The notes beneath the pieces are model-generated. The model saw only the letters and a program-made list of their open reading frames with translations. It did not search any database and had not been told where the DNA came from. A program made the position numbers and the translations under genes. Of a stretch of 64,000 bases of DNA, positions 44,553-62,183 are shown piece by piece. How positions within the stretch are numbered: the first letter of the stretch is position 1; the number at the start of each line of letters is the position of its first letter. Source of the stretch: a virus (taxonomy: Duplodnaviria; Caudoviricetes); IMG/VR virus record IMGVR_UViG_3300033555_000001, positions 224,001 through 288,000 of that record; one strand, written 5' to 3'.

Positions 44553-45719
44553 ATGGCAACAAGTAAAAAAGACGTCACCGTCTATATCGGAAGATTTTCT
44601 CCGTTTCACCGGGGTCATGCTGAAGTTTTAAAGCGTGCGATGCTGACCAGCAAATTAGTAATTGTGCTTGTTGGATCAACAGGTCAAGCGCGGAATCTAA
44701 AAAACCCATTTACGTACGAAGAGCGCGTAAGAGTGATCACGGCCACTGCCTTTGATTTTGTTGTAGCCGGTATTGTAGAGCACGGAAACCCTTCGTCAGT
44801 TCTTGGAGAGCTGGTAATTTTACCGCTGCCGGACCAGCCGTACAATGATGGGTTGTGGATTAGGAGCGTGCAGGAAAAAGTAAAACACGCAATAGATGCC
44901 TTTGCGGTTAAAACAGGACAGCTTCTTACTGACGTATATCTCACCGGAAGCGACCGCGATGAGAGCACGTGGTATCTGAGCGCTTTTCCACAGTACAAGC
45001 AAGATTTGGTAGATGAACACCGGAATACTAACGTGCTCTTAAGCGCCACAAGTGTGCGCGAAGTTCTGTTCAGCGGTGCTGCAAGTGTTACGGACGGTGT
45101 AAAGTTAGGTGTTAAAGTTCCTGACAGCACGCGTAATTTTTTGCTAGAATTTATGAAGACGCCAGAGTGTAAGTTACTGCAACAAGAGCGGGCACACCTG
45201 GATGCCTACAAAAAATCCTGGAGTAGCGCTCCTTATCCCCCAACGTTTGTGACAACTGACGCAATCGTCGTGCAGTCCGGACACGTGCTCGTGGTAGAGC
45301 GTGGTGCATTTCCAGGTAAAGGTCTGTGGGCGCTGCCTGGTGGATTCTTAAATCAAAATGAACGGCTGGCCGATGGCTGCATTCGAGAGCTAATTGAGGA
45401 AACTGGAATCAAAGTTCCTGAAGCGCTGTTAAGAGCAGCAGTTAAAACCGCACCAAAGGAAATTTTTGACAATCCTGGTCGCTCGCTGCGGGGTCGTACA
45501 ATTACTACTGCGTTTTTAATCAGGCTAGACGATACTAAACCGCTGCCAAAAGTAAAAGGGCAGAACGCCCCTCTCAGCGAAACTGGCAATGAAGCGGTAG
45601 TAGAAACCGCAAAGGCATTTTGGCTGCCGCTGAGTACTGCACTTGACAAAACTGACATGTGGTTTGAAGATCATCACGCACTGCTCTCTTGGGCCGTGTC
45701 ACAACTTAACTCAAGGTAA
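44553..45719 (+). CDS. nadM: bifunctional NMN adenylyltransferase / ADP-ribose pyrophosphatase (NadM-Nudix)
   Basis: IGRFSPFHRGH, KNPF, SATSVR, Nudix box GG...E....G..REL.EETG, FEDH. Confidence 0.93.
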   Translation: MATSKKDVTVYIGRFSPFHRGHAEVLKRAMLTSKLVIVLVGSTGQARNLKNPFTYEERVRVITATAFDFVVAGIVEHGNPSSVLGELVILPLPDQPYNDGLWIRSVQEKVKHAIDAFAVKTGQLLTDVYLTGSDRDESTWYLSAFPQYKQDLVDEHRNTNVLLSATSVREVLFSGAASVTDGVKLGVKVPDSTRNFLLEFMKTPECKLLQQERAHLDAYKKSWSSAPYPPTFVTTDAIVVQSGHVLVVERGAFPGKGLWALPGGFLNQNERLADGCIRELIEETGIKVPEALLRAAVKTAPKEIFDNPGRSLRGRTITTAFLIRLDDTKPLPKVKGQNAPLSETGNEAVVETAKAFWLPLSTALDKTDMWFEDHHALLSWAVSQLNSR

Positions 45720-45722
45720 ATC

Positions 45723-45917
45723 ATGACGCATCAAACAGAAACATATCTTTCATTTGCCGAAATAACTTCATTAATTAGGAAGTCGGTAAAAACCCCAGTC
45801 GGAACTGTTGCCACCTATGTAGAGATTCATGTCGGTGATGGTACTTTATTTGGCATCAAAACCGTAACTGGTGCTACTGTTATATTTGAACCACTTGCAA
45901 AAGCCGCTGATGAATAA
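45723..45917 (+). CDS. hypothetical protein
   Basis: AAGG RBS. Confidence 0.6.
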   Translation: MTHQTETYLSFAEITSLIRKSVKTPVGTVATYVEIHVGDGTLFGIKTVTGATVIFEPLAKAADE

Positions 45918-46551
45918 TACAGCTGAATCCAATCCGCACGTTAACTTTATTGCTAAGTCTGAGTACTCAAACAGTCGGGTAAACAGTTCTAGCGATAATT
46001 TATATTTTTGCAAGTACTCAGTCATTAATCCGACTGAGCTCTTTACACCTGGAGAATTTCCAGTTCCTGCGATTTTTGCACACTCACTTGCGCGCATTGG
46101 GACACCGTTTGATATTGGGCTCAGTATCATAGCACCATTATGTGGAGGCCACAAGGTGACATCGGGCTCTGAGGCACGTCACCGAAATAAAACAGCTTTT
46201 GCCCTGACAGTTGCGCAGTGCAAAAAGATGAGTGTTAAAGAATTGGCTCTGGCCCTTAGAAATATCCGATTTAATTATGTGACAACTCGCGCAGTAGAGC
46301 TTGGTTATACAGAAGAACTATACGCTGCGCTATTTCCAGTTGAACAAGAAGAATTTGATTACGGTTTAAGTCTTATCAACAATCTAAACTTTGCTGCGCA
46401 GGCGCAAGCAATTTTTGATACTGTGCGGTCAATTTCTACTGCGCCGGTAATCAGCCCAACAGATTCGGTCGTGATAGAAGTAAACGAAAGTGGGCTGCAG
46501 TCCGCGCAAATCAGCGGTCGCGAGTGGACCTCTATCTATTTGGCCCGTTGA
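45910..46551 (+). CDS. hypothetical protein
   Basis: ATG 45910 preferred over track start 45871. Confidence 0.65.
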   Translation: MNNTAESNPHVNFIAKSEYSNSRVNSSSDNLYFCKYSVINPTELFTPGEFPVPAIFAHSLARIGTPFDIGLSIIAPLCGGHKVTSGSEARHRNKTAFALTVAQCKKMSVKELALALRNIRFNYVTTRAVELGYTEELYAALFPVEQEEFDYGLSLINNLNFAAQAQAIFDTVRSISTAPVISPTDSVVIEVNESGLQSAQISGREWTSIYLAR

Positions 46552-46648
46552 AATGATCAGGTTATAATTAAAATACCAAGTGATCACAAATTACTGTGAC
46601 CCCGGCGAGTGACAGACACAAACCGAAACTAATGATAAGGAGTTTATC

Positions 46649-48178
46649 ATGAATAAAGTTACTGCACCAGTTTTACACGTTCTAGAAAAATCTAAAAAAG
46701 CTCGCGTGTTATATACCGCACGCCAACAGCCCAGATTTAATTTGGTGCTTGCGGTTGACAGCTATAAACTATCTCACGCATTTGCCTATCCTAAAAATAT
46801 AGTTGGCATGGCCTCGTACATTGAAGCACGTACTGGCGGCCGAGATATTATGATTCCCTTTGGTCGCCAAGCAGTGCTGCAGCGGTATCTGTCAGTACCA
46901 ATTACGCAGGGTGATATTAACGATGCTGCTGATTTTGCAAGTACGCACGGTGAACCGTTTGCCCGCCGAGTCTGGGAACATATTTTACGTGAATACAACG
47001 GCTTTATGCCACTCACAATTCGTGGAGTTCCAGAGGGAACTCCCGTCCGCAGTGGTCACGCTATTACCACCATCATGTGCACTGATGCGTATGTTGCCGA
47101 AAATATTTTCTGGCTGTGTTCGTACTTTGAAACGCTGCTGTTACGCGGTGAATGGTACCCAACCACAATTGCCACTGACGACTACAAGATCAAGCGCCTG
47201 ATTAAAAGCTACTATGTAAAAACTGGCGCTGACATGGCCATGCTAAATTTTGCGCTGCACGACTTTGGGGCACGTGGGGTTACTTGCCATGAGCAGGCGC
47301 AGATTGGCGGTGCTGCGCATCTGGTATCGTTTAAGGGCAGTGATACAATAGAGGGTATACAGTACGCCAATTACTGGTACGGCGCAGATATGGCAGCATT
47401 CAGTGTACCTGCAACTGAGCACAGCGTGCAGTGCGCGTTTGGCGCCGGTCAATTTGCAGCCGGCAGTGCTGACGCTGACACAGAGTACATGCGGCACGTG
47501 CTTAAAAACTTGGCTCACAAGGGTGGTATTGTTTCTATGGTGATTGATGGATTTGATGTCTATCGCGCCACGGATATTTTGTGCGGGCGGCTTGTTGCAG
47601 AGATTAAAGCCACTGGAGCAAAAATAGTCTTTCGCCCAGACAGCGGCGATATGTATAAAATCATTCCGTATATTTTAGCAAAGCAAGAGGCTGCGTTTGG
47701 CGTAACAGTAAATGCGCACGGCTTTAAGAAAATTAATACGGTTGGGTTACTGCAAGGTGATGGTATTGACCATGAGGCCGTTGAAAAATTACTTGATCTG
47801 GTGACGGGGCTTGGGTACTCCGCCGATAATATCGTGTTTGGTTCGGGTGGTGCACTGCTGCAAAAACGCAATCGTGATACTTACAAATTCGCGCAAAAAG
47901 CCTCTGCCGTACTTGTTGCAGTACCAGCCTCTCAAACAGAAGTTACTTACGAGTGGGTTGGTATTGCCAAAGATCCAATTACTGATCCAGGCAAGAAATC
48001 AAAAGAGGGGGTATTGACTCTGGCGCGGTCCCTTATTACTGGTGAGCACATGACAGTACGAATAGATACCGGGTCGCTGAGTACTGAATTTGAGGATGTG
48101 ATGGTAGATGTTTATGATCACGGTAAATTTTTTAACCTGACAACACTAGATGAGGTGCGTGCTCGCTGCGCGCAATAA
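46649..48178 (+). CDS. nadV: nicotinamide phosphoribosyltransferase
   Basis: DSYKLSH, LHDFGARG, SVPATEHS, RPDSG, LQGDG, FGSGGALLQK..RDT.KFA.K. Confidence 0.95.
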   Translation: MNKVTAPVLHVLEKSKKARVLYTARQQPRFNLVLAVDSYKLSHAFAYPKNIVGMASYIEARTGGRDIMIPFGRQAVLQRYLSVPITQGDINDAADFASTHGEPFARRVWEHILREYNGFMPLTIRGVPEGTPVRSGHAITTIMCTDAYVAENIFWLCSYFETLLLRGEWYPTTIATDDYKIKRLIKSYYVKTGADMAMLNFALHDFGARGVTCHEQAQIGGAAHLVSFKGSDTIEGIQYANYWYGADMAAFSVPATEHSVQCAFGAGQFAAGSADADTEYMRHVLKNLAHKGGIVSMVIDGFDVYRATDILCGRLVAEIKATGAKIVFRPDSGDMYKIIPYILAKQEAAFGVTVNAHGFKKINTVGLLQGDGIDHEAVEKLLDLVTGLGYSADNIVFGSGGALLQKRNRDTYKFAQKASAVLVAVPASQTEVTYEWVGIAKDPITDPGKKSKEGVLTLARSLITGEHMTVRIDTGSLSTEFEDVMVDVYDHGKFFNLTTLDEVRARCAQ

Positions 48179-49982: not shown

Positions 49983-50001
49983 CTATCTATTGGGTACAGC
50001 A

Positions 50002-50406
50002 ATGTTAAAGCAATGGGCTCGCCACAGTGGTAACGGTTATGAGTGCTCGTCCCATGGCGACCATAGATTTTCAGCTCTTCACGCTAAATTGTCAGATGGG
50101 CGCAGCATTGAAGAAGCATATCAGTTAGACGTCAAGGGCTATCGAGCAGTTTCTGATAGTTGGCGGACTGGAAAAGGCAAGCCTTCGCTCTCATCATTAA
50201 CACGACAAGAACAGTGGATTAGCTATTTGGGCCTATGGGAACAGTGGGTTCAAGAAAATCCTGAGCTGCTAGCTGATTTAATGTTAAAATCAGAAGGTAA
50301 AGTGCTTACTGATAAGTTTGCTACTTCAGATATCAATCAGGCCAAGGCTCTTGCCACTATTATTTCTGAGAGGCTGAGCTTAAAAGCACTGCCATTTACC
50401 TTTTAG
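50002..50406 (+). CDS. conserved phage protein, possibly NADAR-like
   Basis: YECSS.GD.RFSA..A.L.DGRSIEEAYQ..KG; QENPELL.DL...SEGKVLTD. Confidence 0.45.
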   Translation: MLKQWARHSGNGYECSSHGDHRFSALHAKLSDGRSIEEAYQLDVKGYRAVSDSWRTGKGKPSLSSLTRQEQWISYLGLWEQWVQENPELLADLMLKSEGKVLTDKFATSDINQAKALATIISERLSLKALPFTF

Positions 50407-50454: not shown

Positions 50455-50840
50455 GTAAAACAGCGTAAACTCAGTTTTTGAAAAGTTGAACAGGACGGGA
50501 GAGTCGGAGCTCCCCACCTCCACCAAAAGCGCTCTAGTAAGTCTGCAACGCGATCAGACTTTGAAGGCGGGAAACTTGGACTAAGCGTGACGCCTCTAAC
50601 AATTCTCTTAAGGGATTGATTTTGGGAGAGCCAAGTACTAGAGTGTTTTTGATGGGGGTGAATTGGAATCGACTGGCAAAATAGTAAACTACAGAGCGCT
50701 CGAGAGATGACCGACGTAATCGGCATAAAAACCTTAAATGCAAATGATAGCGCATTTTACGGAGACACACGCCTAGCAGCGTGATGCCCGCGAGGCTAAC
50801 CACCTTGTCACCGAACGGTAGGTAAGAAGTTTTACCGCTT
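50455..50840 (+). ncRNA. ssrA: circularly permuted (two-piece) tmRNA; tag ANDSAFYGDTRLAA
   Basis: Acceptor 3' end GGAC-GGGAG/CTCCC-CACCTCC-ACCA at 50493-50525 precedes the 5' end GGGGGTG-AATTGGAATCGAC at 50654; G3-U70 pair; tag 50740-50784; outer boundaries approximate. Confidence 0.88.
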
Positions 50841-50870
50841 CAAAGGGCCTTAGGGTCCTTTGTTGTTTTC
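50841..50870 (+). terminator. intrinsic terminator after tmRNA
   Basis: CAAAGGGCC/GGTCCTTTG then TTGTTTT. Confidence 0.7.
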
Positions 50871-52499: not shown

Positions 52500-52575
52500 G
52501 CCGATGTAGCTGAGCGGTTACAGCAGAGGATTCTAAATCCTAAGATCCCCGGTTCGAATCCGGGCATCGGCACCA
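52500..52575 (+). tRNA. amber suppressor tRNA (anticodon CUA)
   Basis: GCCGATG/CATCGGC acceptor, GCTG/CAGC D-stem, loop TT-CTA-AA, TTCGAAT, ACCA; 76 nt. Confidence 0.9.
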
Positions 52576-52600
52576 TAGTTTAATTATAGCGAGGTCTATT

Positions 52601-52795
52601 ATGCTTACCACCACAGCAATTGCCTTAGTTTATTTTGTATTCGTCACTGCGGTTTATTTCTGTATTATTGCCGTGATAGTAAAAGATGGTCGAACTAACA
52701 CCACGCCCACAAAACGAAAATATAACTCAATCATCTTTTTCGCTGTTACCGTGTTCTATATTGTGTCAATGATTAGCAGCACGCTAACTTTCTGA
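52601..52795 (+). CDS. small membrane protein
   Basis: GAGG RBS, two TM. Confidence 0.65.
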   Translation: MLTTTAIALVYFVFVTAVYFCIIAVIVKDGRTNTTPTKRKYNSIIFFAVTVFYIVSMISSTLTF

Positions 52796-52839
52796 GCAAT
52801 TTAAACTTTAATTACGTTATAAGATATCTAAGAGACTCC

Positions 52840-53058
52840 ATGTTAGAAGATCCTAAACACGACATACCAGCTGTAAAGACACGGGCAACTTTAGTAACAG
52901 TAAGCAAAATTAAAAGTGCTGCTCTCAGACGCACTGTTATTGTTTTAACCTTTGTGCCAATGCTGACTGCTAATATAGTGTGTGTTGGTATTGCTGCGGT
53001 GAAGGGGCTGTTCAGAAATATAACTGTGGTATTTTCTACTGCGGTAAAACACTGGTAA
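52840..53058 (+). CDS. small membrane protein
   Basis: Hydrophobic central segment. Confidence 0.55.
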   Translation: MLEDPKHDIPAVKTRATLVTVSKIKSAALRRTVIVLTFVPMLTANIVCVGIAAVKGLFRNITVVFSTAVKHW

Positions 53059-53105
53059 TTTTACTACTTTAAAATATAAGACGCTATTTTATACACGGGA
53101 AATCA

Positions 53106-53519
53106 ATGAGCGTTATAGCTAACTTTGTGAATCGTTTATTTCCGTCTTTGGCGCATCATTTTGCTTCATCGTGCACGCTGCAGGTTTCAAAAGCAAATGC
53201 TCAGCAGCTTGAGGCTCTTGATATTGACAAGATACACATTGAATACCGGCCAATCATTGGCGCTCTAGTTCCACGCTTTTATTGGGGTGAAGGTGAAGGT
53301 GATCACTTTCTACCCGACGGTTATTTGCATTTGCCGACGGTTCCAATGATCATAACGCGGAAGGGGCAAAACAGCTATTCAGTCCGCGCTTTTAAAGAAC
53401 ATCAATCGATGAGCGCTGTGGAGTTTAATGGTTTTATCGCTCAGCTGATTATAGATGCAATTACCACGATCAATTATAAAAATTACCTGTTCGACAAACA
53501 CGCGACAAAAACCTGGTAA
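53106..53519 (+). CDS. hypothetical protein
   Basis: GGGA RBS. Confidence 0.65.
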   Translation: MSVIANFVNRLFPSLAHHFASSCTLQVSKANAQQLEALDIDKIHIEYRPIIGALVPRFYWGEGEGDHFLPDGYLHLPTVPMIITRKGQNSYSVRAFKEHQSMSAVEFNGFIAQLIIDAITTINYKNYLFDKHATKTW

Positions 53520-53689
53520 TTTTCCCGGACGGCTCTAAACTTACCGGCGCAACTGAACAAAAAATGGATACGGTGTTTGCGGTTACAAAATAACCAGTAC
53601 CTGTTAGTAACCTGAACTAATTTTATTTGATTCTGAAAACTGTATTAATATACAAGAGTACTAAAGATTAACCAACCACTGGAGTTAAC

Positions 53690-54040
53690 ATGAAGCACTA
53701 GATTGAAAATCAGAAAACATATTTGTACGCAATCTCTCGCCGAGATATTCCTCTCGCGCAACAGGGAATTCAAGCAGCTCATGCTGGAATTGAATTTGCC
53801 TATCAGTACGGTCGCCCTGCCGATCACCATTCCTCGTATATTCATTTAACTGTTCGCAACAAAGAACACCTTGAGCATCTCTGTGCGCAGCTTTTGGCGT
53901 GCGGCCAGCGTACGGCTGAATTCCACGAGCCATATCAAGATTGGGGCTTAACCGCAATTGCAACAATTTTAACAGAAGAAAATCGCCATTTACTTAAAGG
54001 CCTACAACTGTGGCGCCTACCAACTCAGGAGCAATCATGA
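53690..54040 (+). CDS. peptidyl-tRNA hydrolase 2 (Pth2)-like protein with in-frame TAG at codon 4
   Basis: GGAG-N5-ATG AAG CAC TAG ATT GAA... in frame with Y.ISRRDI...Q.IQAAHA...L.V....F.EP...GLTAIA. Confidence 0.75.
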
Positions 54041-54477
54041 ACTATACAATTGTAGCACACAGGGAAACTGATTCAGGTACTGACCGACGCGGTGATTACT
54101 ATCGTAACCCTGGCGATTTTTATTTTAGAGCATTTCAAGAAGATCAAAAAGGCGAGTTCATCAGCAAGTGGGCTGAGTTTAGTCTTGAAAATAATCACGA
54201 TGATTTACACGTTATGATTAACGGGCTGACAGAGGATGAATTCGCCGGCAGCACTGATCCGCTGGATGTTGCCAAATATTCTGAATTTGCAGCCATTACA
54301 GAATTAATGTATCTGAAGCGAGCGGTGCTTCATCATGAGCGTGCAGCAAAAGAAGCCGGTCGGCTGGGCCGTGAGACTGCTCAAAAAGCGGTGAATGAAA
54401 TTAAAAACAAGCTTGTTGCTCGCCAACAGGCTGAAGCTGAAATAATCAGATTACAAAACTCGCTGAGGAACCTATGA
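54037..54477 (+). CDS. hypothetical protein
   Basis: ATG 54037 with AGGAG RBS. Confidence 0.7.
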   Translation: MNYTIVAHRETDSGTDRRGDYYRNPGDFYFRAFQEDQKGEFISKWAEFSLENNHDDLHVMINGLTEDEFAGSTDPLDVAKYSEFAAITELMYLKRAVLHHERAAKEAGRLGRETAQKAVNEIKNKLVARQQAEAEIIRLQNSLRNL

Positions 54478-55025
54478 AAATTACACTGAACCAAAATCCG
54501 CTGCACGCAGTTGTAGAACTAGATGAGCGTGAAATTGCAGCACTTAGACAAAAGCTGATCATTGCTGATCTCGAAGACAGATTGGCTGAAGCCAGCTTTA
54601 GATTAACGGACGGAAAATATTTTAACCTCGAACTAGCTCGCAAATCTACCAAGCTTAGCTTTCTAGATGAAGACGGTGCTACCGGTGAACACGCTCAGGA
54701 GATTGATAGGCGCCTCAAGTACTATGTTGAGGCACTCACTGAGGTGCACGGTGGTGACTGCACGTGTATTCCGGCCTCATGTATGAAGTGCCATGCTGAA
54801 GAGATGCTTGGAATTGACACCGCACCGTACAGCAAGCACACTGGTAATTCTATTCAGTCTGCGTTTAGTAAACCTGGCACTACACTTGATGAAGCAATTG
54901 AGGTACTCCGCACGCCCATTGAGCCACAGAAAGGTTATGAACAGCACTTGGCGCGGTGGAATGTTCAAAGGGCACAGGCACTAATTGCCTTACTTGAACA
55001 CCAGAAAATGCTATCTGTCACCTAA
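54474..55025 (+). CDS. hypothetical protein
   Basis: H.GDCTC.P.SC.KC.AE Cys cluster. Confidence 0.75.
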   Translation: MKITLNQNPLHAVVELDEREIAALRQKLIIADLEDRLAEASFRLTDGKYFNLELARKSTKLSFLDEDGATGEHAQEIDRRLKYYVEALTEVHGGDCTCIPASCMKCHAEEMLGIDTAPYSKHTGNSIQSAFSKPGTTLDEAIEVLRTPIEPQKGYEQHLARWNVQRAQALIALLEHQKMLSVT

Positions 55026-55124
55026 TGCCTCTATAACGCGCTGTTTAGAAAAAGGACTATAATGTTATCTACAACAATATACCACGTATCACACATCACA
55101 AAAAATACCACAGGGAGAAATAGC

Positions 55125-55406
55125 ATGCAATTTACCACAAGAGAAGAATACCTGGCAGCAGTTGCGGCATGGAAACTAGAATACGCCAGTCTCGGCGCTG
55201 AAATACGTGCTCACCGAGAAGAGTTTAAAATGACCCAGCGTATCTTGTCAAGAGATGGAAGTAATTTTGGGCGCAACTTTGTGGCTATGTGGGAAGCCAC
55301 CCTAAAAATGGGCGGGCTGCGGCAAAGAGCGACCGAGCTTCTTGAAGACCGGGCTGCCAGTAAAAAGGCCTCTTATTCAGCGTACCTACAAAGTCTGCTG
55401 CCGTGA
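55125..55406 (+). CDS. hypothetical protein
   Basis: ATG 55125 with GGGAG RBS. Confidence 0.7.
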   Translation: MQFTTREEYLAAVAAWKLEYASLGAEIRAHREEFKMTQRILSRDGSNFGRNFVAMWEATLKMGGLRQRATELLEDRAASKKASYSAYLQSLLP

Positions 55407-55480
55407 TCCCGAAATCTTGACGAGTGCTCCGCGGGATAGGCGTATAATCAATCATGCCTTATTTCTAACGGGCAATAAAA

Positions 55481-55786
55481 ATGAATCAGCAAAACGAACG
55501 AGTTTGGTATACCGCAAAGCTGCTCCCGGCAGCGCAGGCAATTTTTACTGAGGGTTTTTACCCTGAACCCAAGGCTCGTACGGGTAATCAATATGTGTAC
55601 TTTACCCAAATCGATCCCACGCCGCTGAACGCCAAAGTGCTTGTTGCCTCGCGCCTGGCAGAGAATTCATTTCGCATGCTGACTGCTGACTTGGCAAAAT
55701 TTTGTCTTGAGCCCGGCGAAAAAGCAACTCGCGCCGAAATGAAGCAGTTAAACGAACTCAGCGCGCACCTAGAAAGAAATGTCTAA
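55481..55786 (+). CDS. hypothetical protein
   Basis: 101-aa ORF. Confidence 0.65.
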   Translation: MNQQNERVWYTAKLLPAAQAIFTEGFYPEPKARTGNQYVYFTQIDPTPLNAKVLVASRLAENSFRMLTADLAKFCLEPGEKATRAEMKQLNELSAHLERNV

Positions 55787-56297
55787 TACCGGGCGCCATC
55801 TTTTTATAGATTTAGAGGATACCGTCATTGAGCCGGTACTCAACGGCTGGGGGCGCACAGCTCTCTTGAACATCGAAAAAGTAAAGCGCTTTATCAAAGA
55901 ATTTAAACCAAATACCGTTAACATCTTTTCGTTTGCTATTTGGAATACAGCAGAACTTGATAAGTTTAATACACTGTGCCGCCCTGGATTAGAACAGGCA
56001 CTTGGCATTAAATTTAACGCAATTCCTACAGTAGATGACGACATTATTCCGATGTGCTGTAACGTGCTGGGCATTGGCCAGGGCGCTGTTGACTTTGACG
56101 ACTGCAGCACTTTCTGGGGAAAGCACGAGGCGTTCAGATTGAATATGCGTCACCTGGCCAAGGCTTCACAGAGACCACTTGAGGTTGCATTTCTGGATGA
56201 TGCAGTTTTTAACGAGAACTTTGAGTGGCCTGATCTGAAAATTTCCGGTCGTATAATCAATATTGATCTGATGCCTGATTGCGAGAGCGCTGCATGA
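55779..56297 (+). CDS. HAD-superfamily-like protein
   Basis: LFIDLEDTVI motif I, AFLDD motif IV. Confidence 0.55.
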   Translation: MSNTGRHLFIDLEDTVIEPVLNGWGRTALLNIEKVKRFIKEFKPNTVNIFSFAIWNTAELDKFNTLCRPGLEQALGIKFNAIPTVDDDIIPMCCNVLGIGQGAVDFDDCSTFWGKHEAFRLNMRHLAKASQRPLEVAFLDDAVFNENFEWPDLKISGRIINIDLMPDCESAA

Positions 56298-56851
56298 AAA
56301 CCTTTATTTTTGCTGCCTGTGTGCTGGCTGCTCCTGTTGCGCAGGCACAGCTGAGTGCTATCGCCCAGTATGATTTTAACAGGCAAGGTTCGCGGTCATG
56401 GACTGAAACCGCGCTTGGTATTGCGTTTGATACTGAGGTGGGCCGGGTGGACGCATCATTTATTAAAAACAGCGGCTTGCCCAATCAATCAACTGACGCG
56501 CACGGCTTTGAGCTTGGCTACAGCACGCAGCTTGACACAGCACTTGGTGCAGTAACCGGCCGGGTAGGATTTGGCCGCCGAAATTTAATTGACGGTAACC
56601 TTGGCTCTTTTACCGCAGTGCACCGGTATTACACGCTGAGTCTGGAACACAGCGCCGCGTTGTCCTCTAACATTAACACGTTTATTAATTTCAGACATCG
56701 TAATGGGCTTAACTCCGCGCCAGTAGATAACAGGCTCTCTGCAGGCTTTGATTTCTCTGTTGCCAGTATTACTGCCAGATTAGGCTATGGGGTAACCCGA
56801 TCAAGCAGCACCTCGCACGGCATACACACCTCAATCTCTTATAACTTTTAA
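56294..56851 (+). CDS. outer-membrane beta-barrel protein
   Basis: Signal peptide MKTFIFAACVLAAPVAQA, alternating amphipathic strands, terminal ISYNF. Confidence 0.7.
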   Translation: MKTFIFAACVLAAPVAQAQLSAIAQYDFNRQGSRSWTETALGIAFDTEVGRVDASFIKNSGLPNQSTDAHGFELGYSTQLDTALGAVTGRVGFGRRNLIDGNLGSFTAVHRYYTLSLEHSAALSSNINTFINFRHRNGLNSAPVDNRLSAGFDFSVASITARLGYGVTRSSSTSHGIHTSISYNF

Positions 56852-56860
56852 GGACTCAAC

Positions 56861-57169
56861 ATGGACATCAGATCTTTTAAACTTACTACTGGCGAAGAGC
56901 TTGTTGCGCAATTACTTCAAGAAACAAGCCGCGGATTCCTGGTAAAGAGCCCGCTGATTGTGCACATGATGCGCACTCCAGAGGGTCCTACTTTGGCGTT
57001 TGCACAGTGGTCACTGGTTCAAAAGCAGGGTGTAGAAGTCGAGTTACTTACTAGCGCGCTGGTGTCAGCTCCAGTCCAGTTACTGGATGAAGTATCAGAC
57101 AGCTATCTCCAGCAGACTACTGGAATTGCCCTGCCTCCAAAAGGCGGCAGCCAGATTTTGCTGAGCTAA
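56861..57169 (+). CDS. Sm-like fold protein
   Basis: FKLTTGEELVA....L.VK.PL...LAFAQW pattern of phage Sm-like proteins. Confidence 0.55.
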   Translation: MDIRSFKLTTGEELVAQLLQETSRGFLVKSPLIVHMMRTPEGPTLAFAQWSLVQKQGVEVELLTSALVSAPVQLLDEVSDSYLQQTTGIALPPKGGSQILLS

Positions 57170-57170
57170 C

Positions 57171-57509
57171 ATGGCTGATATTAAAATGCTGGTTGCTGAG
57201 ACCATTAAGCACTTGACAATTTTAGACGATGCGCACGGTACTGATGTGACGGATTTTCTGGAGAGTAGTATTAATGAGGCCAAAGACACCGGCCTGATGG
57301 ACGATCCTGTAGAAGCTGCAGAGTTTTTAGGTGAAGCTGTTGAATACACACCTGCGCAGCAGCGACAAAATCTGGCGAATTTTTTTGACGAGCAATTAAT
57401 AACTTTGGAGGCGGAGAGCCTGTGCAGAACTAGTGAACAACTAGAGCTGTGTCAAAAGCTCTTTTCATACCTGGTTGACCTCCTCAGCCCACCGCAGAAA
57501 TCAGGTTAA
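57171..57509 (+). CDS. acidic hypothetical protein
   Basis: 112-aa ORF. Confidence 0.65.
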   Translation: MADIKMLVAETIKHLTILDDAHGTDVTDFLESSINEAKDTGLMDDPVEAAEFLGEAVEYTPAQQRQNLANFFDEQLITLEAESLCRTSEQLELCQKLFSYLVDLLSPPQKSG

Positions 57510-57586
57510 CATTAAAGCAAATAGTATAAATAGAAATATAGTACGCGAGCGGCATCCTGCCACCCGCACATTTAAAAGGGCTTATC

Positions 57587-57766
57587 ATGGTCTCTATTGT
57601 CTTTACTCTTATTGTTATTGGCGTCTTGCTGTACTTGGTTGAGCGGTTTATTCCAATGGACGCTTCCATCAAAAACATCATTCGCATCGTTGTAGTTGTT
57701 GGTGTTGTCATTTGGCTGTTGCAAGTACTTGGTATCATCAGCGGCATGCCGCGCTTTGGCGGGTAA
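57587..57766 (+). CDS. small two-TM membrane protein (Thivi_2564-like, 59 aa)
   Basis: Not in the track; IVIGVLLYLVERFIPMDASIKNIIRIVVVV; TATAAATA at 57525-32. Confidence 0.65.
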   Translation: MVSIVFTLIVIGVLLYLVERFIPMDASIKNIIRIVVVVGVVIWLLQVLGIISGMPRFGG

Positions 57767-57792
57767 CAACCCGAATTAAACTTTGAAAGAAG

Positions 57793-57822
57793 TTTACACG
57801 TTTGCTAAATAAGTGCTATAAT
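57793..57822 (+). promoter_or_regulatory. sigma70-like promoter for the tRNA cluster
   Basis: TTTACA-N18-TATAAT. Confidence 0.55.
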
Positions 57823-58198
57823 GCTCTTGTAGCAGATTAATTGATTTACCCGCGGATCTCCGGTCCGCTCTCTTAACTAGGATTATGAATACACTTAGCA
57901 CATTACTAGCCGCGATATCAGGGACGAGTTTACTCGCCTCAATGTCACCCAGCGCGAGCACATATCCGCGAGTAAGGACTCTCAGCTAAAAATCATAATT
58001 TGATTACAGCCTCGAGGGTCCTGATGAAAGTCACGACCCTCGAGTTGCATCCGAAAGAAATTGCTGGACCTGGCGAAATAAATTGTACATGTAATAGAAG
58101 TAGAGTTATAATGAATCTCTGAACGCTGCGAACAACATCCAGCGAGTAACAAGATCTTTAACAACTTAGAACACTATTTGAGACTTAGAGATAGGTCT

Positions 58199-58327
58199 CA
58201 TTTCAAAGCAGTTTTACACTGTGGTGCGAGTACGGCTGATAGCCAAATGTCTGCACCATGTTGAATCTTCTGCCAAAGATGATCCGCTGCCTGGCAGGGC
58301 TATGGTTAGTTTAACTGCTTTGAAATG
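58199..58327 (+). ncRNA. unassigned structured RNA with pseudoknot
   Basis: 15-bp closing stem, internal stems, CTGCCA/TGGCAG loop pairing. Confidence 0.5.
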
Positions 58328-58334
58328 AAAATAT

Positions 58335-58421
58335 GTTGTATCGTCAGAGTTGGAGAGCTGAAGCGGTCTGTAAAATCGTTCGCGCACGCGTGAGTAGGTT
58401 CGAATCCTACATACAACACCA
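58335..58421 (+). tRNA. tRNA-Tyr(GTA)
   Basis: GTTGTAT/ATACAAC, CT-GTA-AA, long variable arm, ACCA. Confidence 0.88.
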
Positions 58422-58479
58422 GATTATTTGGTAGATGCGAAAATGCAAAAACCGCGGAGTAAAAATTAAAGGAAAATAA

Positions 58480-58713
58480 ATGAATATCTTAAGTCTACAA
58501 GAACAAATCTTAAGTCTACAAGAACACAGAGATGGTTTCTACGTGGTGAGTAACGTGGTGAGTGATGACGTTGGCGACACGATTTGCGTTACTGTTTTCA
58601 GACACAACGGTGAAAAATGGGTACGAAAAATTGGTTACCCAGGTGTTTTACCAACTCTTCCATTTGTTGATATAATGATGAATGAAGATCCACAACTTAA
58701 GACTTACGACTAG
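58480..58713 (+). CDS. hypothetical protein with internal 21-bp duplication (58486-58526)
   Basis: AAGGA RBS; ILSLQEQ ILSLQEH. Confidence 0.55.
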   Translation: MNILSLQEQILSLQEHRDGFYVVSNVVSDDVGDTICVTVFRHNGEKWVRKIGYPGVLPTLPFVDIMMNEDPQLKTYD

Positions 58714-58770
58714 AATTTTGCCAAGCGAGTAGCTCTCACTTGACGAATGTCGGGAGTAATTACCCTGACG

Positions 58771-58866
58771 AACTCTAAAGCTGATGAAATGGTAAACGTG
58801 GCTCCGATCAGGAGCCGAGCACACCGCAAGGTCCTCTTACAGGTTCGAGTCCTGTCCACCAGAGTT
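58771..58866 (+). pseudogene. degenerate Leu/Ser-type tRNA-like element
   Basis: Class-II D-loop and perfect T-arm, but 5-nt anticodon loop and mismatched acceptor. Confidence 0.5.
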
Positions 58867-58880
58867 CAATGAGATTTTAA

Positions 58881-58976
58881 CCGTACTGATGAGCTCTGTA
58901 GAGAGCGAAACGAACAGTGAACAGCCGATCGAGCGCTTGGTGGCAGCTCTCGACGCAGTAGCTGTCTCGTATACGG
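58881..58976 (+). ncRNA. type I hammerhead ribozyme
   Basis: CCGTA-CTGATGA-GCTCT/AGAGC-GAAA-CGA...TCG-TA-TACGG; cleavage predicted after 58971 (GUA). Confidence 0.85.
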
Positions 58977-59046
58977 GCTTGCCTAATGGGTAGGGAAACG
59001 CACTTGCAATGCGATGCTAGGAGATCGTTACTCCTCAGGTCCACCA
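58975..59046 (+). tRNA. tRNA-Ala(TGC), atypical
   Basis: GGGCTTG/CAGGTCC with G3-U70, CT-TGC-AA, ACCA; D region about 3 nt short. Confidence 0.65.
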
Positions 59047-59055
59047 GAATTTATT

Positions 59056-59141
59056 GTTGTTTTAGCTTAAGAAGAGCGTCGGGTCTGCCAATATTATTGG
59101 TGGACCGGGAGGAGTAGGTTCAAGTCCTACAGACAGCACCA
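59056..59141 (+). tRNA. tRNA-Gly(GCC)-like with 12-nt insertion in the anticodon loop
   Basis: GTTGTTT/AGACAGC, T-arm GTAGG/CCTAC, CT-GCC-A then insert. Confidence 0.45.
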
Positions 59142-59154
59142 GTTTTACAATTAA

Positions 59155-59228
59155 CAGAGATTATGATAGTGGTAGTCGTCCTCGTCTGGACCGAGGAAGC
59201 GGAAATTCGATTTTTCCATCTCTGACCA
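59155..59228 (+). tRNA. tRNA-Pro(TGG)
   Basis: CAGAGAT/ATCTCTG (C1-G72, A73), TC-TGG-AC. Confidence 0.78.
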
Positions 59229-59494
59229 ATTTTTACTACAGCACCTATTGTTCTGCACTCGCAAGAGTGGTCAGTAGCATCTGCCGAGGGTAATAATGTC
59301 AGTGAGAGTTGGTACTCTCTAGGGGTGAAAGAAGATGGTGGAACCAACTGCGACATGTGGAATGAGGCATGCGAGCGTTTCAAATCTCCTCAAAGTTAAG
59401 TCACTCACCAAGTGACAAATCTTTCTAGGGTGAAAAATCGCGCGTATCTAACGGATTTAGTAACCTCGGTCTGGTGTAATGCCAGTCAGAATAT

Positions 59495-59567
59495 GCAGGA
59501 TTTCTCCTGAGAGAGAACTCACCCTTCCAAGGTGATGGACCTGGTTTGAATCCAGGATCCTGCTCCA
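59495..59567 (+). tRNA. tRNA-Gly(TCC)
   Basis: GCAGGAT/ATCCTGC, CT-TCC-AA, U73-CCA; D-loop atypical. Confidence 0.78.
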
Positions 59568-59772
59568 CTATTAGAAGGATGGTGAGGTCGCACCTCACAA
59601 AGTCTCGGCTACTATAACTGCGCCGTCGGTTATTTTAAGGCGGCAAATAGAGACACCGGATCAAATCTTCGACCTAGTTGATCTACACAATCACACAAGT
59701 TAGTTCACTCTAAAGAACTGATTTGCTTAGCAGGTTTCGGTTCCCTGAGCTTGATAAAACCGTCAGATCAAC

Positions 59773-59849
59773 AGCGGGTTAGAGAAGAAGTCATCTCGCC
59801 GGCCTCATAAGCCGGAAATCACGTGGAGCATTTCCCGTACCCGCTACCA
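59773..59849 (+). tRNA. tRNA-Met(CAT)
   Basis: AGCGGGT/ACCCGCT, CCGGC-CTCATAA-GCCGG; atypical T-loop. Confidence 0.8.
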
Positions 59850-59936
59850 ATATGTTAACCTGCAATACTAGTAATAGTTTACGCGTTTTATTGTATAATT
59901 ACTCATCTTACTGCAGCGCTAACTAGGAGAAATACC

Positions 59937-60122
59937 ATGGCCGAAGGACAAGCAACAAAGGAAGCAACGCCGCCGCGTCTCAAGCTTCCAAAGAACTACA
60001 AGTGTTCCAAAGAGCTCAAGACTATTTTTGCCCTTTGTAATTTGTCAGGCGGTGAGAAGCGCGCCATGATGGTGGCACACGCTGCTTCGCTGGTCAAGCA
60101 AGTAACACGCGTTAAGTCGTAA
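59937..60122 (+). CDS. small basic protein
   Basis: AGGAG RBS; promoter TATAATTACTCATC at 59894. Confidence 0.7.
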   Translation: MAEGQATKEATPPRLKLPKNYKCSKELKTIFALCNLSGGEKRAMMVAHAASLVKQVTRVKS

Positions 60123-60134
60123 TACGGGGAAATT

Positions 60135-60443
60135 ATGAAGCACTTACTTTTAGCACTGTGTTTACTCCCAGGTATCTCTAGTGCTTCAACCTTTAGTAAT
60201 GAGGCAGTACCAGTACATGTGTCATGTGTTAGCAATTTAAAATCCGCGCATTGCGTGCTTGAGAATAAATTAGCTAAGCAAATTACCTGTGAAATACTTG
60301 TCAGCGCTGTTACCACTCATGTGGTACTCCGTAAAAGGGTATTTCAGAACATTCAACCAGGATACTTTGCTACCGTTCAAGTTCTTGCCACACCTGGCAC
60401 AGCGCTTAAACACTCTACTGGAACTGCACTCTGTATTTTGTAA
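60135..60443 (+). CDS. putative secreted Cys-containing protein
   Basis: Signal peptide MKHLLLALCLLPGISSA. Confidence 0.7.
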   Translation: MKHLLLALCLLPGISSASTFSNEAVPVHVSCVSNLKSAHCVLENKLAKQITCEILVSAVTTHVVLRKRVFQNIQPGYFATVQVLATPGTALKHSTGTALCIL

Positions 60444-60461
60444 AAGTTAAAACCGAATAAA

Positions 60462-60538
60462 GCCGGGCTGGCGCAATTGGCAGACGCGTATGCCTTAGGA
60501 GCATAATGTTCTCGGTTCGAGTCCGAGGTCCGGCACCA
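60462..60538 (+). tRNA. tRNA-Leu(TAG) with short variable loop
   Basis: GCCGGGC/GTCCGGC, CT-TAG-GA, 5-nt variable region. Confidence 0.82.
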
Positions 60539-60542
60539 ATAT

Positions 60543-60681
60543 GGATATCCCGGGATGGGGAATAATTAAGCAAGTAATTTAACCGGCGTTATTTCCGAGA
60601 GAATTACTTGGTGCGCACGTGACGACGTGTTAGCGACAAGTCTTAATTTTTCTAGCGGTTCAAGTCCGCTAATATCCGCCA
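60543..60681 (+). ncRNA. tRNA-like RNA with a branched insert replacing the anticodon loop
   Basis: GGATAT/ATATCC-GCCA acceptor, AGCGG-TTCAAGT-CCGCT T-arm, AATTAAG/CTTAATT stem. Confidence 0.55.
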
Positions 60682-60801
60682 AATTCGCCGAATGTGGTAG
60701 GCGTTTTCAGCGGAGTAACGTTCGAAGCTGATAGCTAAGTCAAAAACAACTCTTCGGGATTATCAGACTAAATCTCAATAAATTCTAGTACCAGAATAAA
60801 T

Positions 60802-60877
60802 GCCGGTTTAGCTCAGTTGTTAGAGCGTCTGATTTGTAATCAGGATGTCGTGGGTTCGAATCCTGCAACCGGCACCA
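60802..60877 (+). tRNA. tRNA-Thr(TGT)
   Basis: Canonical cloverleaf, TT-TGT-AA. Confidence 0.92.
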
Positions 60878-61056
60878 AGTCTTAACTCAAGCAGTTCGAG
60901 CCCGCTAATATTTGCCATTCAATATTAATATAATAACAACATAATAGCGCTAAATAGTAGCGTGCTGGTTCAAGTCCAGCACAAGAACATAGCGCAGCCC
61001 CCGGAACTGCGTCTGTATAAGTTAAATCCGGGCTAATTTAACTTACGAGGTTAAAA

Positions 61057-61983
61057 ATGAAAGTTCTACTCTTGGCGCTCCTGTTCAGTGCTTCGGTGGC
61101 AGCCGCACCAAAAAATACCACCGCAAAAATTCCAGTACAAGACCGACCAGAGTTTCAGGAAACGCTGAACTTGCAAATCCTCCTGGATCGGGCTCATTTT
61201 TCAACGGGTGAAATTGACGGTGTTCCAAGCGTTAAAATTACGCGAGCACTCAAAGCATTTCAGGAACAAAATAATTTAGAAATTACCGGAGTGCCTGACG
61301 CTGGAACTACGCAAGCGCTAAACGCGACGGCCGAGAATATGCTGATCGACTATACGTTAACTGCAGCTGATTTAGATGTCAAGTTAGTAAAGAGTATACC
61401 TCGCACCATGCTGGCAAAGAGTAAACTACAACGCCTGCGCTATACTTCACTCTCTGAAGCACTGAGTGAACGTTTTCAGGTAAGCCCTAATGTTTTTAAA
61501 TTTCTGAATCCAACTGCAACATTCTCTGTTGGCAGCACCGTTAAAATTCCGGCAGTGGGAGGACCTCTCGCGGCTCAAGTAAGCTCAATAGTGGTCAGTA
61601 AAGCAAACAGCTCACTCACTCTGCGAGATGCGCAGAATAAAATTGTCGGGTATTACCCAGTAACACTTGGTGCTCAAGTATCTCCATCGCCGAGTGGAAC
61701 TTTAAAAGTTAAGTCAATCACAAAGAATCCGTATTACAATTACGATCCAGAGCGCTTTGAGAGTAAAGGCACAACAATTAAAGTAACGCTTCCACCAGGT
61801 CCAAACAACCCAGTAGGTTTAGTCTGGATTGCGCTGTCAAAGCGGCACTATGGAATTCATGGAACGCCCGATCCGTCTAAGATTTCAAAGACGAATTCAC
61901 ACGGCTGTATTAGATTAGTAAACTGGGATGCACTTGAAGTTGCAGATGCTGTTGCAGCGGGCGTGCCAGTTTTGATAGAATAA
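61057..61983 (+). CDS. L,D-transpeptidase (YkuD) with peptidoglycan-binding domain
   Basis: Signal peptide, GEIDG...ALKAFQ...TG PG-binding, YGIHGT...SHGCIRL. Confidence 0.9.
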   Translation: MKVLLLALLFSASVAAAPKNTTAKIPVQDRPEFQETLNLQILLDRAHFSTGEIDGVPSVKITRALKAFQEQNNLEITGVPDAGTTQALNATAENMLIDYTLTAADLDVKLVKSIPRTMLAKSKLQRLRYTSLSEALSERFQVSPNVFKFLNPTATFSVGSTVKIPAVGGPLAAQVSSIVVSKANSSLTLRDAQNKIVGYYPVTLGAQVSPSPSGTLKVKSITKNPYYNYDPERFESKGTTIKVTLPPGPNNPVGLVWIALSKRHYGIHGTPDPSKISKTNSHGCIRLVNWDALEVADAVAAGVPVLIE

Positions 61984-61987
61984 AAAC

Positions 61988-62061
61988 GCCCCGTTAGCCG
62001 AGTGATAAGGCCCTTACTTGTAGTAAGGAGATCGTCTGTTTGATTCAGACACGGGGCACCA
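61988..62061 (+). tRNA. tRNA-Thr(TGT), second copy, divergent
   Basis: GCCCCGT/ACGGGGC, CCTTA-CTTGTAG-TAAGG. Confidence 0.82.
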
Positions 62062-62065
62062 AGTT

Positions 62066-62183
62066 CTAGTGTTAGCATAGTGGAAGTGCAACCCTCTAGG
62101 GTAGGATTCCGTTCGATTCGGATGCGAGTATGGTAACCGTAAATCCGCAAGGGGAGGCGTCAGTTCGAATCTGGCACACTGGA
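62066..62183 (+). ncRNA. double-elbow tRNA-like RNA without anticodon
   Basis: CTAGTGT/ACACTGG acceptor enclosing two D-like and two T-loop arms. Confidence 0.45.

What the first reader, a model, noticed from the sequence alone, without database searches (positions are those of the whole stretch)
50455..50870. Phage-encoded circularly permuted two-piece tmRNA
Seen: the T-arm, acceptor strand and CCA (50497-50525) lie upstream of the GGGGGTG 5' end (50654). The two strands give a 7-bp acceptor with G3-U70. The tag reads ANDSAFYGDTRLAA, followed by a terminator, and the T-loop is an atypical 8-nt AGTCGGAG. Known: permuted tmRNAs occur in Alphaproteobacteria, some cyanobacteria and some Betaproteobacteria; phage tmRNAs are usually one-piece. 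No smpB is in the window. Inference: an independent permutation or capture; standard annotation may miss it.
Basis: partly seen in the sequence, partly recalled or inferred. Interest (0 to 1): 0.8.

Follow-up and report, generated by a model that had tools for sequence, protein, structure and literature searches.

The report
Phage two-piece tmRNA gene, odd T-loop
A 311-kb T4-related phage carries a real, rearranged ("two-piece") gene for tmRNA, the RNA that rescues stalled ribosomes; such phage genes are already described, so this is an ordinary new member, unusual only for an 8-base T-loop that makes ARAGORN miss it.

Summary
Window 50462-50870 (+) is a circularly permuted tmRNA gene. Rfam tmRNA_permuted scores 104.9 bits against a cut-off of 47. 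The acceptor stem has 7 bp with G3:U70, CCA is encoded, the tag is ANDSAFYGDTRLAA, and a terminator follows. ARAGORN misses it because of the 8-nt T-loop.

It is not a private invention of this phage. Eight of 12 related IMG/VR loci have a homologous permuted tmRNA beside the same NAD-salvage gene (NAMPT) or tRNA array. So does the cultured Stenotrophomonas phage DLP6, where it is unannotated. Across 13 relatives the acceptor stem, T stem, inner P2 helix and a stem closing the excised spacer all covary (90% paired against 70% in shuffles, 0 of 500 shuffles as high).

Trees put the gene with betaproteobacterial two-piece and beta/gamma one-piece tmRNAs, not with the alpha type. An independent permutation is not needed.

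The 8-nt T-loop recurs in a wastewater metagenome. A biofilm variant changes the tag mostly synonymously.

The phage has no smpB, so it must use the host's. Phage two-piece tmRNAs are published (PMC9004378), and this scan has noted them before on other DNA. Here the spacer holds no gene. I rate it a new member of a known kind, of modest interest.

The parts
50462..50525 (+). Acceptor piece. It holds the 3'-side strands of helix P2 (outer AGCGU 50462-50466; inner CAG 50491-50493), the conserved GGAC, the T stem (50497-50501 with 50510-50514), the 8-nt T-loop AGUCGGAG (50502-50509), the acceptor 3' strand CACCUCC (50515-50521), the discriminator A and the encoded CCA (50522-50525).
   Evidence: RF04321 alignment; parse; covariation of the T stem, acceptor stem and inner P2.
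50526..50653 (+). Intervening segment of 128 nt, removed on maturation. A basal closing helix pairs 50526-50539 with 50636-50649. An inner hairpin spans 50540-50560. The conserved single-stranded leader UUGAU lies just before G1. There is no credible ORF.
   Evidence: Fold of -39 kcal/mol, z -2.26. The closing helix is 95.9% paired, with changes on both sides in 9 of 10 pairs across 13 relatives. The longest + strand ORF is 12 codons. No other Rfam family matches.
50654..50870 (+). Coding piece. It holds the acceptor 5' strand GGGGGUG (50654-50660), the D-loop analogue AAUUGGAAUCGA (50661-50672), the 5'-side P2 strands (50673-50700), a hairpin at the PK1 position (50707-50726), the tag frame, the 3' hairpins and the terminator.
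   Evidence: The beta_tmRNA model aligns through 50834.
50740..50784 (+). Tag reading frame. The resume codon is GCA. The frame encodes ANDSAFYGDTRLAA and ends with stop TGA.
   Evidence: A biofilm-metagenome variant differs in 7 codons, 5 of them synonymous, giving ANDDAFFGDTRLAA.
50841..50869 (+). Intrinsic terminator: a 9-bp hairpin followed by UUGUUUU.
44553..48178 (+). Upstream NAD-salvage genes: NMN adenylyltransferase/Nudix (44553-45719) and nicotinamide phosphoribosyltransferase (46649-48178). They are syntenic with the tmRNA in related phages.
   Evidence: Pfam and PHROG hits; synteny.
49990..50406 (+). Conserved phage gene of unknown function (phrog_9995) directly upstream of the tmRNA. 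The same order occurs in a 342-kb relative (L003).
52500..63916 (+). Downstream tRNA array, including a CUA (amber-reading) tRNA at 52500-52575. With the tmRNA it forms a translation-support block.
   Evidence: ARAGORN and Rfam.

Best explanation
This is a working ssrA gene of the two-piece type carried by a lytic T4-related jumbo phage.

Inferred pathway. The gene is transcribed as one precursor that ends at the terminator at 50841-50869. The precursor folds so that the acceptor 3' strand plus CCA and the acceptor 5' strand pair, with the 128-nt spacer closed by its own stem. Host tRNA-processing enzymes then act: RNase P cuts 5' of G1, and nucleases trim 3' of the encoded CCA. This removes the spacer and leaves an acceptor RNA of about 64 nt and a coding RNA of about 217 nt, held together by the acceptor stem and helix P2. 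Host AlaRS charges the RNA through G3:U70. Host SmpB and EF-Tu deliver it to ribosomes stalled on broken mRNAs. Translation resumes at GCA and appends ANDSAFYGDTRLAA, a ClpXP-type degradation tag.

Likely benefit to the phage. The gene keeps ribosomes free and recycles truncated proteins while host transcription is off and mRNAs are being cut. It sits with a tRNA array, a suppressor tRNA and an RNA ligase.

Shown here: gene anatomy, structural covariation, conservation across a phage family, and coding-type selection on the tag.
Inferred: transcription, processing, charging, use of host SmpB, tagging, and the benefit to the phage.
For: - RF04321 scores 104.9 bits against a cut-off of 47.
- The anatomy is intact.
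- Ten NAMPT- or phrog_9995-linked phage homologues all keep G3:U70, show compensatory acceptor-stem changes, and carry AND/ANN...(L/M/V/I)AA tags.
- On 13 relatives, 90.4% of cells are paired against 70.2% in shuffles (0 of 500 as high) and 47-60% when the partners are slid. The acceptor stem is 98.9% paired, the T stem 96.9% and the spacer-closing stem 95.9%. The inner P2 pairs covary.
- An unconstrained cofold of the two pieces forms the acceptor stem, the T arm and intermolecular helices.
- The 8-nt T-loop sequence recurs in independent metagenomes. A variant tag differs by 5 synonymous and 2 conservative codon changes.
- The genome has no integrase and no second tmRNA.
- The context includes tRNA genes and an RNA ligase.
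- Established knowledge, from memory: a free 3' CCA is needed for charging, so the spacer must be cut off. Two-piece tmRNA is functional in Caulobacter (Keiler et al. 2000, as cited in PMC9004378).
Against: - The T-loop has 8 nt (AGUCGGAG) instead of the usual 7-nt UUCGAUU-like loop. It is the only such case among about 50 viral permuted tmRNAs parsed. Its effect on SmpB binding or charging is unknown.
- Two of the four pairs of the Rfam hairpin at the PK1 position are mismatched. A different hairpin forms there instead.
- The outer P2 helices are poorly paired in a fixed register.
- The scan for sigma-70-type promoters found none.
- The phage encodes no smpB, and the host is unknown.
Confidence: 0.8

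Rival explanations
1. The RNA is a modulator or decoy rather than a rescuer. With its aberrant T-loop it may titrate host SmpB or compete with host tmRNA and so dampen host trans-translation. This is what was proposed for the TLD-only RNA of mycobacteriophage DS6A.
For: The 8-nt T-loop is unique among the viral homologues parsed. Phage TLD-only tmRNA-like genes exist: L135, and DS6A, whose analogue inhibits tmRNA (PMC4131195, PMC11915505).
Against: The tag frame, resume context and stop codon are intact and evolve like coding sequence. G3:U70, CCA and the acceptor covariation are all kept. A decoy would not need a tag frame or a terminator-bounded coding piece.
Confidence: 0.08
2. The gene is decaying. 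It was inherited from the phage family, but in this lineage the T-loop insertion has disabled it.
For: The T-loop is atypical. The subtype models score low: beta_tmRNA 27.7-58.4 bits against a cut-off of 84. There are mismatches in P2 and at the PK1 position.
Against: The same acceptor piece, 8-nt loop included, is kept nearly unchanged in wastewater and glacier metagenomes, while the spacer loop and synonymous tag positions vary. No other lesion is visible. The closing stem, leader, tag and terminator are all intact.
Confidence: 0.06
3. The sequence is a host ssrA fragment or an attachment-site relic picked up by imprecise excision, as seen in temperate phages that integrate into ssrA.
For: tmRNA genes are common integration sites, and fragments of them occur in prophages (PMC9004378, PMC4383910).
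Against: The gene is complete at both ends. There is no integrase in the 311-kb record. The phage is T4-related. The gene sits in conserved synteny with NAMPT and tRNA genes across many phages.
Confidence: 0.01

Closest known systems
Phage-encoded two-piece tmRNAs of aquatic T4-like myophages (Methylophilales phage Melnitz, pelagimyophages; Buchholz et al. 2022, PMC9004378)
   Same: A permuted ssrA in a large lytic myophage, with no phage smpB. It is a common but not universal feature of the phage group.
   Different: The Melnitz type is alpha-like and carries a glutamine riboswitch in its 3' part. The window's gene lies on the beta/gamma side of the tree, has no riboswitch, has a 128-nt structured spacer and has an 8-nt T-loop.
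Unannotated permuted tmRNA of Stenotrophomonas phage vB_SmaS-DLP_6 (KU682439.2, 102838-103059)
   Same: The same module order, NAMPT then small ORFs then permuted tmRNA then tRNA array. The stretch CGAGAGAUGACCGACGUAAUCGGCAU at the PK1 position is identical. It was the only blastn hit among 50,697 phage records.
   Different: DLP6 has a canonical UUCGAUU T-loop, a 31-nt spacer and the tag ANDDSFAPMAIAA. It passes the beta_tmRNA cut-off (103.7 bits), and ARAGORN finds it.
Betaproteobacterial two-piece tmRNA (Rfam RF01850; Sharkady & Williams 2004, as cited in PMC9004378)
   Same: The same architecture: a short acceptor piece, a stem-closed spacer, and a coding piece that ends soon after the tag in a terminator. 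It clusters with the phage family, and one clade of all of them is not rejected.
   Different: The bacterial genes score 160-305 bits on RF01850 against 27.7-58.4 for the window. Their spacers are 3-43 nt. In most of them the final A of CCA is not encoded (CCACCU or CCACCC), and the spacer stem continues the acceptor stem directly.
Alphaproteobacterial two-piece tmRNA (Caulobacter; Keiler et al. 2000; Rfam RF01849)
   Same: The gene order is permuted. The window marginally passes RF01849 (55.4 bits against 50, model positions 40-241 only). The T-loop may share G at positions 54 and 58 (inference).
   Different: Alpha-type T-loops are GGCRGUA or UGCGAUU. The alpha sequences are separated from the window's group by a 100/99 branch.
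One-piece phage tmRNAs (mycobacteriophage Bxz1 group, Bacillus phage G) and the TLD-only RNA of DS6A (PMC4131195)
   Same: A phage-borne ssrA without smpB.
   Different: Their gene order is standard, or they have no tag frame at all.

Membership tests
tmRNA (SsrA) | tRNA-like domain: 7-bp acceptor stem with G3:U70, discriminator A and 3' CCA | tested here: met
   GGGGGUG pairs with CACCUCC, followed by ACCA. U:G is invariant and three pairs covary in 13 relatives.
tmRNA (SsrA) | T arm stacked on the acceptor stem (5-bp stem plus T-loop) | tested here: met
   The 5-bp stem GGGAG/CUCCC lies directly 5' of the acceptor strand. The stem is 96.9% paired across relatives. The loop is an atypical 8 nt, against 7 nt in nearly all homologues.
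tmRNA (SsrA) | Tag reading frame with an Ala resume codon, a hydrophobic-Ala-Ala end and a stop codon | tested here: met
   ANDSAFYGDTRLAA followed by TGA. Relatives all have AND/ANN...xAA tags. A metagenomic variant changes mostly synonymous positions.
tmRNA (SsrA) | Pseudoknot PK1 between P2 and the resume codon | tested here: inconclusive
   The Rfam hairpin has 2 of 4 pairs mismatched. A different 7-bp hairpin (50707-50726), shared with DLP6, forms there instead. No pseudoknot search was run.
tmRNA (SsrA) | SmpB cofactor available | not testable with these tools
   No SmpB is found in the 311-kb phage record. The host is unknown and would have to supply it.
Permuted / two-piece tmRNA (Rfam RF04321) | The acceptor piece lies upstream of the coding piece, and the score is over the curated cut-off | tested here: met
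   104.9 bits against 47, full model 1-213.
Permuted / two-piece tmRNA (Rfam RF04321) | The two pieces are joined by intermolecular helices (acceptor stem and P2) | tested here: met
   The acceptor stem and the inner three P2 pairs covary. The cofold forms them unprompted. The outer P2 pairs are not supported in a fixed register.
Permuted / two-piece tmRNA (Rfam RF04321) | The intervening segment is excised, giving two mature RNAs | not testable with these tools
   Only indirect evidence exists: a covarying closing stem, the conserved UUGAU leader, and the requirement for a free CCA end.
Betaproteobacterial type (Rfam RF01850) | Score over the 84-bit cut-off | tested here: not met
   27.7 bits and 58.4 bits with lax filters. 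Relatives DLP6, L003, L007 and L011 pass at 90-135 bits.
Betaproteobacterial type (Rfam RF01850) | Phylogenetic grouping with beta-type genes | tested here: inconclusive
   The window lies on the same side of a 100/99 branch as the beta-type and the beta/gamma one-piece tmRNAs. Holding all permuted ones together is not rejected (p 0.605), but the inner branches are unresolved.
Alphaproteobacterial type (Rfam RF01849) | Score over the 50-bit cut-off | tested here: met
   55.4 bits, but only model positions 40-241 of 355 are matched.
Alphaproteobacterial type (Rfam RF01849) | Alpha-type T-loop and grouping with alpha sequences | tested here: not met
   Alpha T-loops are GGCRGUA or UGCGAUU. The alpha clade is separated from the window's group by 100/99 support.

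The most novel reading that the evidence does not exclude
The NAMPT-linked tmRNAs of large T4-like phages form a phage-resident branch of the 'beta-type' two-piece lineage. They have a stem-closed, hypervariable spacer of 27-172 nt. The beta type is patchy in Betaproteobacteria: 2 of 81 genomes sampled across one order, and 12 of 31 in one family. That patchiness could reflect replacement of the host ssrA by a phage gene rather than the reverse. Within the phage branch, the window's 8-nt T-loop, kept in three metagenomes, would be a functional variant that widens what a tmRNA T-loop can be.
Probability: 0.12. Interest if true: 0.55.

Novelty: new member of a known kind. Interest (0 to 1): 0.3.

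Why it matters
The main value is for annotation and for choosing an experimental system.
- A whole family of permuted tmRNAs in large T4-like phages is easy to miss. ARAGORN fails on this one, and the gene is unannotated in the cultured phage DLP6.
- DLP6 probably infects a host with a one-piece tmRNA. A sampled genome of the related genus Pseudoxanthomonas has one; that Stenotrophomonas itself does rests on memory and was not tested here. DLP6 therefore offers a tractable system to ask what a phage gains from its own ribosome-rescue RNA.
- The 8-nt T-loop and the covarying spacer stem are small additions to what is known of tmRNA structure and processing.
- None of this overturns current understanding.

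Tried and rejected
- Megablast of 20 kb around the gene against 50,697 phage records found no match. Sensitive blastn of the gene found only DLP6.
- Sequencing runs: no RNA holder was listed, and all four holders are DNA contigs, so nothing can be said about expression or ends.
- The sigma-70 promoter scan of 50200-51000 found none. A weak TTGATT-17-TAGAGT inside the spacer was seen by eye only and is not counted.
- The genome contigs pattern scan returned mostly chance matches in high-GC coding DNA. Only 8 true alpha tmRNAs were usable. The Rhodocyclaceae MAG used as an entry point had no permuted gene itself.
- Exact 20-mer search in IMG/VR: no other contig carries the 8-nt T-loop. The hits were one-piece tmRNAs, a TLD-only RNA and one permuted relative.
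- Independent permutation: considered, but not supported. The free tree is unresolved, and the constrained single-clade tree is slightly better.
- A gene in the spacer, as other notes of this scan report elsewhere: rejected for this window. The longest + strand ORF is 12 codons.
- Riboswitch or other RNA family in the spacer or 3' tail: none at E <= 1.
- Outer P2 helices and PK1 could not be confirmed in a fixed alignment register.
- Sharkady & Williams 2004 (PMC516066) is not held. The supplement of PMC11915505 has no phage table in text form.

Full report
**Observation.**
- Rfam's permuted-tmRNA model RF04321 matches 50462-50784 (+) over its full length at 104.9 bits (cut-off 47, E 2.1e-19).
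- The T stem GGGAG/CUCCC (50497-50501 with 50510-50514) encloses an 8-nt loop, AGUCGGAG.
- The acceptor 3' strand CACCUCC plus ACCA ends at 50525.
- After a 128-nt gap, GGGGGUG (50654-50660) completes a 7-bp acceptor stem with G3:U70.
- The tag frame starts at GCA 50740 and reads ANDSAFYGDTRLAA, followed by TGA.
- A 9-bp hairpin with a U-tract (50841-50869) closes the unit.
- ARAGORN lists eleven tRNAs in the window but no tmRNA.

**Where it sits.** The window is positions 224001-288000 of a 310,728-bp IMG/VR virus record estimated to be 87% complete.
- The record has no SmpB, no tyrosine integrase and no one-piece tmRNA.
- Upstream lie an NMN adenylyltransferase/Nudix gene, a nicotinamide phosphoribosyltransferase (NAMPT) and a phrog_9995 gene. 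An RNA ligase lies at 37686-38981.
- Downstream is a tRNA array that includes a CUA-anticodon tRNA.
- Other notes of this scan describe the region as a translation-rescue island. I verified only the items cited here.

**Is the odd T-loop real?** A Logan re-assembly of the probable source run (an ice metagenome) is identical at depth 23.
- A wastewater contig covers 50453-50608. Its only listed changes are at 50547, 50548 and 50554, all in the loop of a spacer hairpin.
- A glacier contig is identical over 50456-50507. So the 8-nt loop exists in independent samples.
- A biofilm contig covering 50684-50960 changes seven tag codons. Five changes are synonymous and two are conservative (S to D, Y to F). 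That pattern is expected of a translated frame.
- A second wastewater contig keeps the CCA end and the GGGGG start but has a shorter, different spacer.

**Relatives.**
- The only blastn hit among 50,697 phage records is Stenotrophomonas phage DLP6. There an unannotated permuted tmRNA (RF04321 136.8 bits, beta_tmRNA 103.7 bits) lies between its NAMPT gene and its tRNA array.
- I fetched IMG/VR loci through the neighbouring proteins, not through the RNA. Eight of 12 loci carry a permuted tmRNA on the same strand close by.
- All ten family members first parsed keep G3:U70. They show compensatory acceptor changes (GGGGGUG/CACCUCC, GGGGAUG/CAUCUCC, GGGGCUG/CAGCUCC, GGGCCUG/CAGGUCC, GGGGUCG/CGACUCC). 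Their tags begin AND or ANN and end (L/M/V/I)AA.

**Structure.** I aligned 13 family members and scored a structure that I named from the window row.
- 90.4% of cells pair, against 70.2% in shuffles (0 of 500 as high) and 47-60% when the partners are slid.
- The acceptor stem is 98.9% paired, with three covarying pairs and an invariant U:G. The T stem is 96.9% paired.
- A helix formed by the first ten spacer bases after CCA and the ten bases preceding the conserved UUGAU leader is 95.9% paired, with double-sided changes in nine of its ten pairs. The spacer is therefore a stem-closed hairpin whose apex varies freely.
- This fits the spacer lengths: 27-172 nt in the phage family, against 3-43 nt in the beta-type bacteria and 20-41 nt in the alpha-type bacteria sampled.
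- The inner three P2 pairs covary. The outer ones do not hold in a fixed register.
- The window's spacer folds at -39 kcal/mol (z -2.26).
- An unconstrained cofold of the two pieces forms the acceptor stem, the T arm and intermolecular helices.
- The hairpin that Rfam expects at the PK1 position is mismatched. A different hairpin, identical in DLP6, stands there instead.

**Why ARAGORN fails.** I ran ARAGORN on the extracted genes. It finds family members with spacers up to 172 nt. It misses the window (8-nt T-loop), L008 (6-nt T-loop) and L137 (a U-U mismatch in the acceptor stem). The T-loop is therefore the cause, not the long spacer.

**Lineage.** The subtype models disagree for the window.
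- alpha_tmRNA scores 55.4 bits (cut-off 50, partial model).
- beta_tmRNA scores 27.7 or 58.4 bits depending on the filters (cut-off 84).
- True beta-type bacterial genes score 160-305 bits. They are patchy: 2 of 81 genomes sampled in one order and 12 of 31 in one family.
- I built trees from the acceptor piece plus the coding piece up to the stop codon. They put alpha bacteria and 23 viral contigs on one side. The window, its phage family, the beta-type bacterial genes and the beta/gamma one-piece tmRNAs fall on the other side (100/90 and 100/99 support).
- The one-piece genes form one starred clade.
- A tree holding all beta-like permuted genes (phage and bacterial) together is 3.7 log-likelihood units better than the free tree and is not rejected (AU p 0.605). 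Phage-family monophyly is likewise not rejected (p 0.587).
- Nothing therefore calls for a separate permutation event in this phage. The direction of transfer between phages and Betaproteobacteria is open. With about 190 columns and several long branches the inner topology is weak.

**Mechanism.** My best reading is given under Best explanation. The shown parts are the anatomy, the covariation, the family conservation and the coding-type variation of the tag. Transcription, cleavage by host RNase P and 3' nucleases, charging by AlaRS, use of host SmpB and proteolysis of tagged proteins are inferred from established tmRNA biology. That biology is cited in PMC9004378 and PMC11915505 and otherwise recalled from memory. 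A free CCA end is required for charging, so removal of the spacer on at least the 3' side is obligatory if the RNA works at all.

The window's T-loop, read without its first A, is GUCGGAG. It has G where T54 and A58 normally stand, as do the alpha-type loops GGCRGUA. This suggests, but does not show, that the loop is workable.

**Novelty.**
- In 2014 only one-piece phage tmRNAs were listed (PMC4131195).
- In 2022 Buchholz et al. reported 53 two-piece forms among 133 unique phage tmRNAs, mostly aquatic (PMC9004378).
- The 2025 database holds 79 phage sequences and produced the model that finds this gene (PMC11915505).
- This scan has also reported phage two-piece tmRNAs on other genomes, several with small protein genes in the spacer. 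The window's spacer has no credible ORF. One relative, L007, has a 63-codon ORF with an AGGA upstream that starts in the spacer and ends inside the tmRNA 5' part.
- What is new here is modest: the NAMPT-linked family and its unannotated member in DLP6, the covarying spacer-closing stem with a hypervariable apex, and the 8-nt T-loop.

**Verdict.** This is a new member of a known kind. Interest 0.3.

Noticed in passing
L002 2922-3143 (KU682439.2 102838-103059); L002 5858-6106: The cultured Stenotrophomonas phage DLP6 has an unannotated permuted tmRNA (RF04321 136.8 bits, beta_tmRNA 103.7 bits). About 2.7 kb downstream there is a sub-threshold full-length match to bacterial RNase P RNA (54.7 bits against a cut-off of 100).
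   Followed up: partly
L007 4587-4778: In one relative, the 166-nt tmRNA spacer starts a 63-codon ATG ORF with an AGGA upstream. The ORF ends 35 nt inside the tmRNA coding piece. This matches the 'gene in the spacer' layout that other notes of this scan report.
   Followed up: partly
L135 234-300: A viral contig carries a TLD-only mini-tmRNA. It has GGGGGTGAATTGGAATCGAC, a short helix, a T arm and CCACCA, with no tag frame, like mycobacteriophage DS6A.
   Followed up: no
L291 427-704 (G112): One bacterial beta-type tmRNA gene lacks the T arm and the acceptor 3' strand, while the rest of the gene is intact. It is either a pseudogene or an assembly gap.
   Followed up: no
L267, L282-L288: In most bacterial beta-type genes sampled the final A of CCA is not encoded (CCACCT or CCACCC), and the spacer stem continues the acceptor stem directly. 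The phage family encodes the full CCA, with ACCA facing the UUGAU leader as an internal loop.
   Followed up: partly
window 52500-52575: The tRNA that ARAGORN labels 'tRNA-Pyl' has a CUA anticodon and scores 70.3 bits as an ordinary tRNA. It is an amber-reading tRNA, already followed up elsewhere in this scan.
   Followed up: no
window 59056-59138, 59773-59846: Rfam calls two tRNAs that ARAGORN does not list. ARAGORN in turn lists several that do not reach Rfam's table. The tRNA array therefore holds non-standard tRNA-like genes.
   Followed up: no
window 61057-61983: A gene with a peptidoglycan-binding domain plus a YkuD L,D-transpeptidase domain sits inside the tRNA array.
   Followed up: no
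window 50512-50674 (run X2, record 3): A wastewater contig keeps the CCA end and the tmRNA 5' end of this gene but has a different spacer about 36 nt shorter. The spacer is exchanged or remodelled between close relatives.
   Followed up: no
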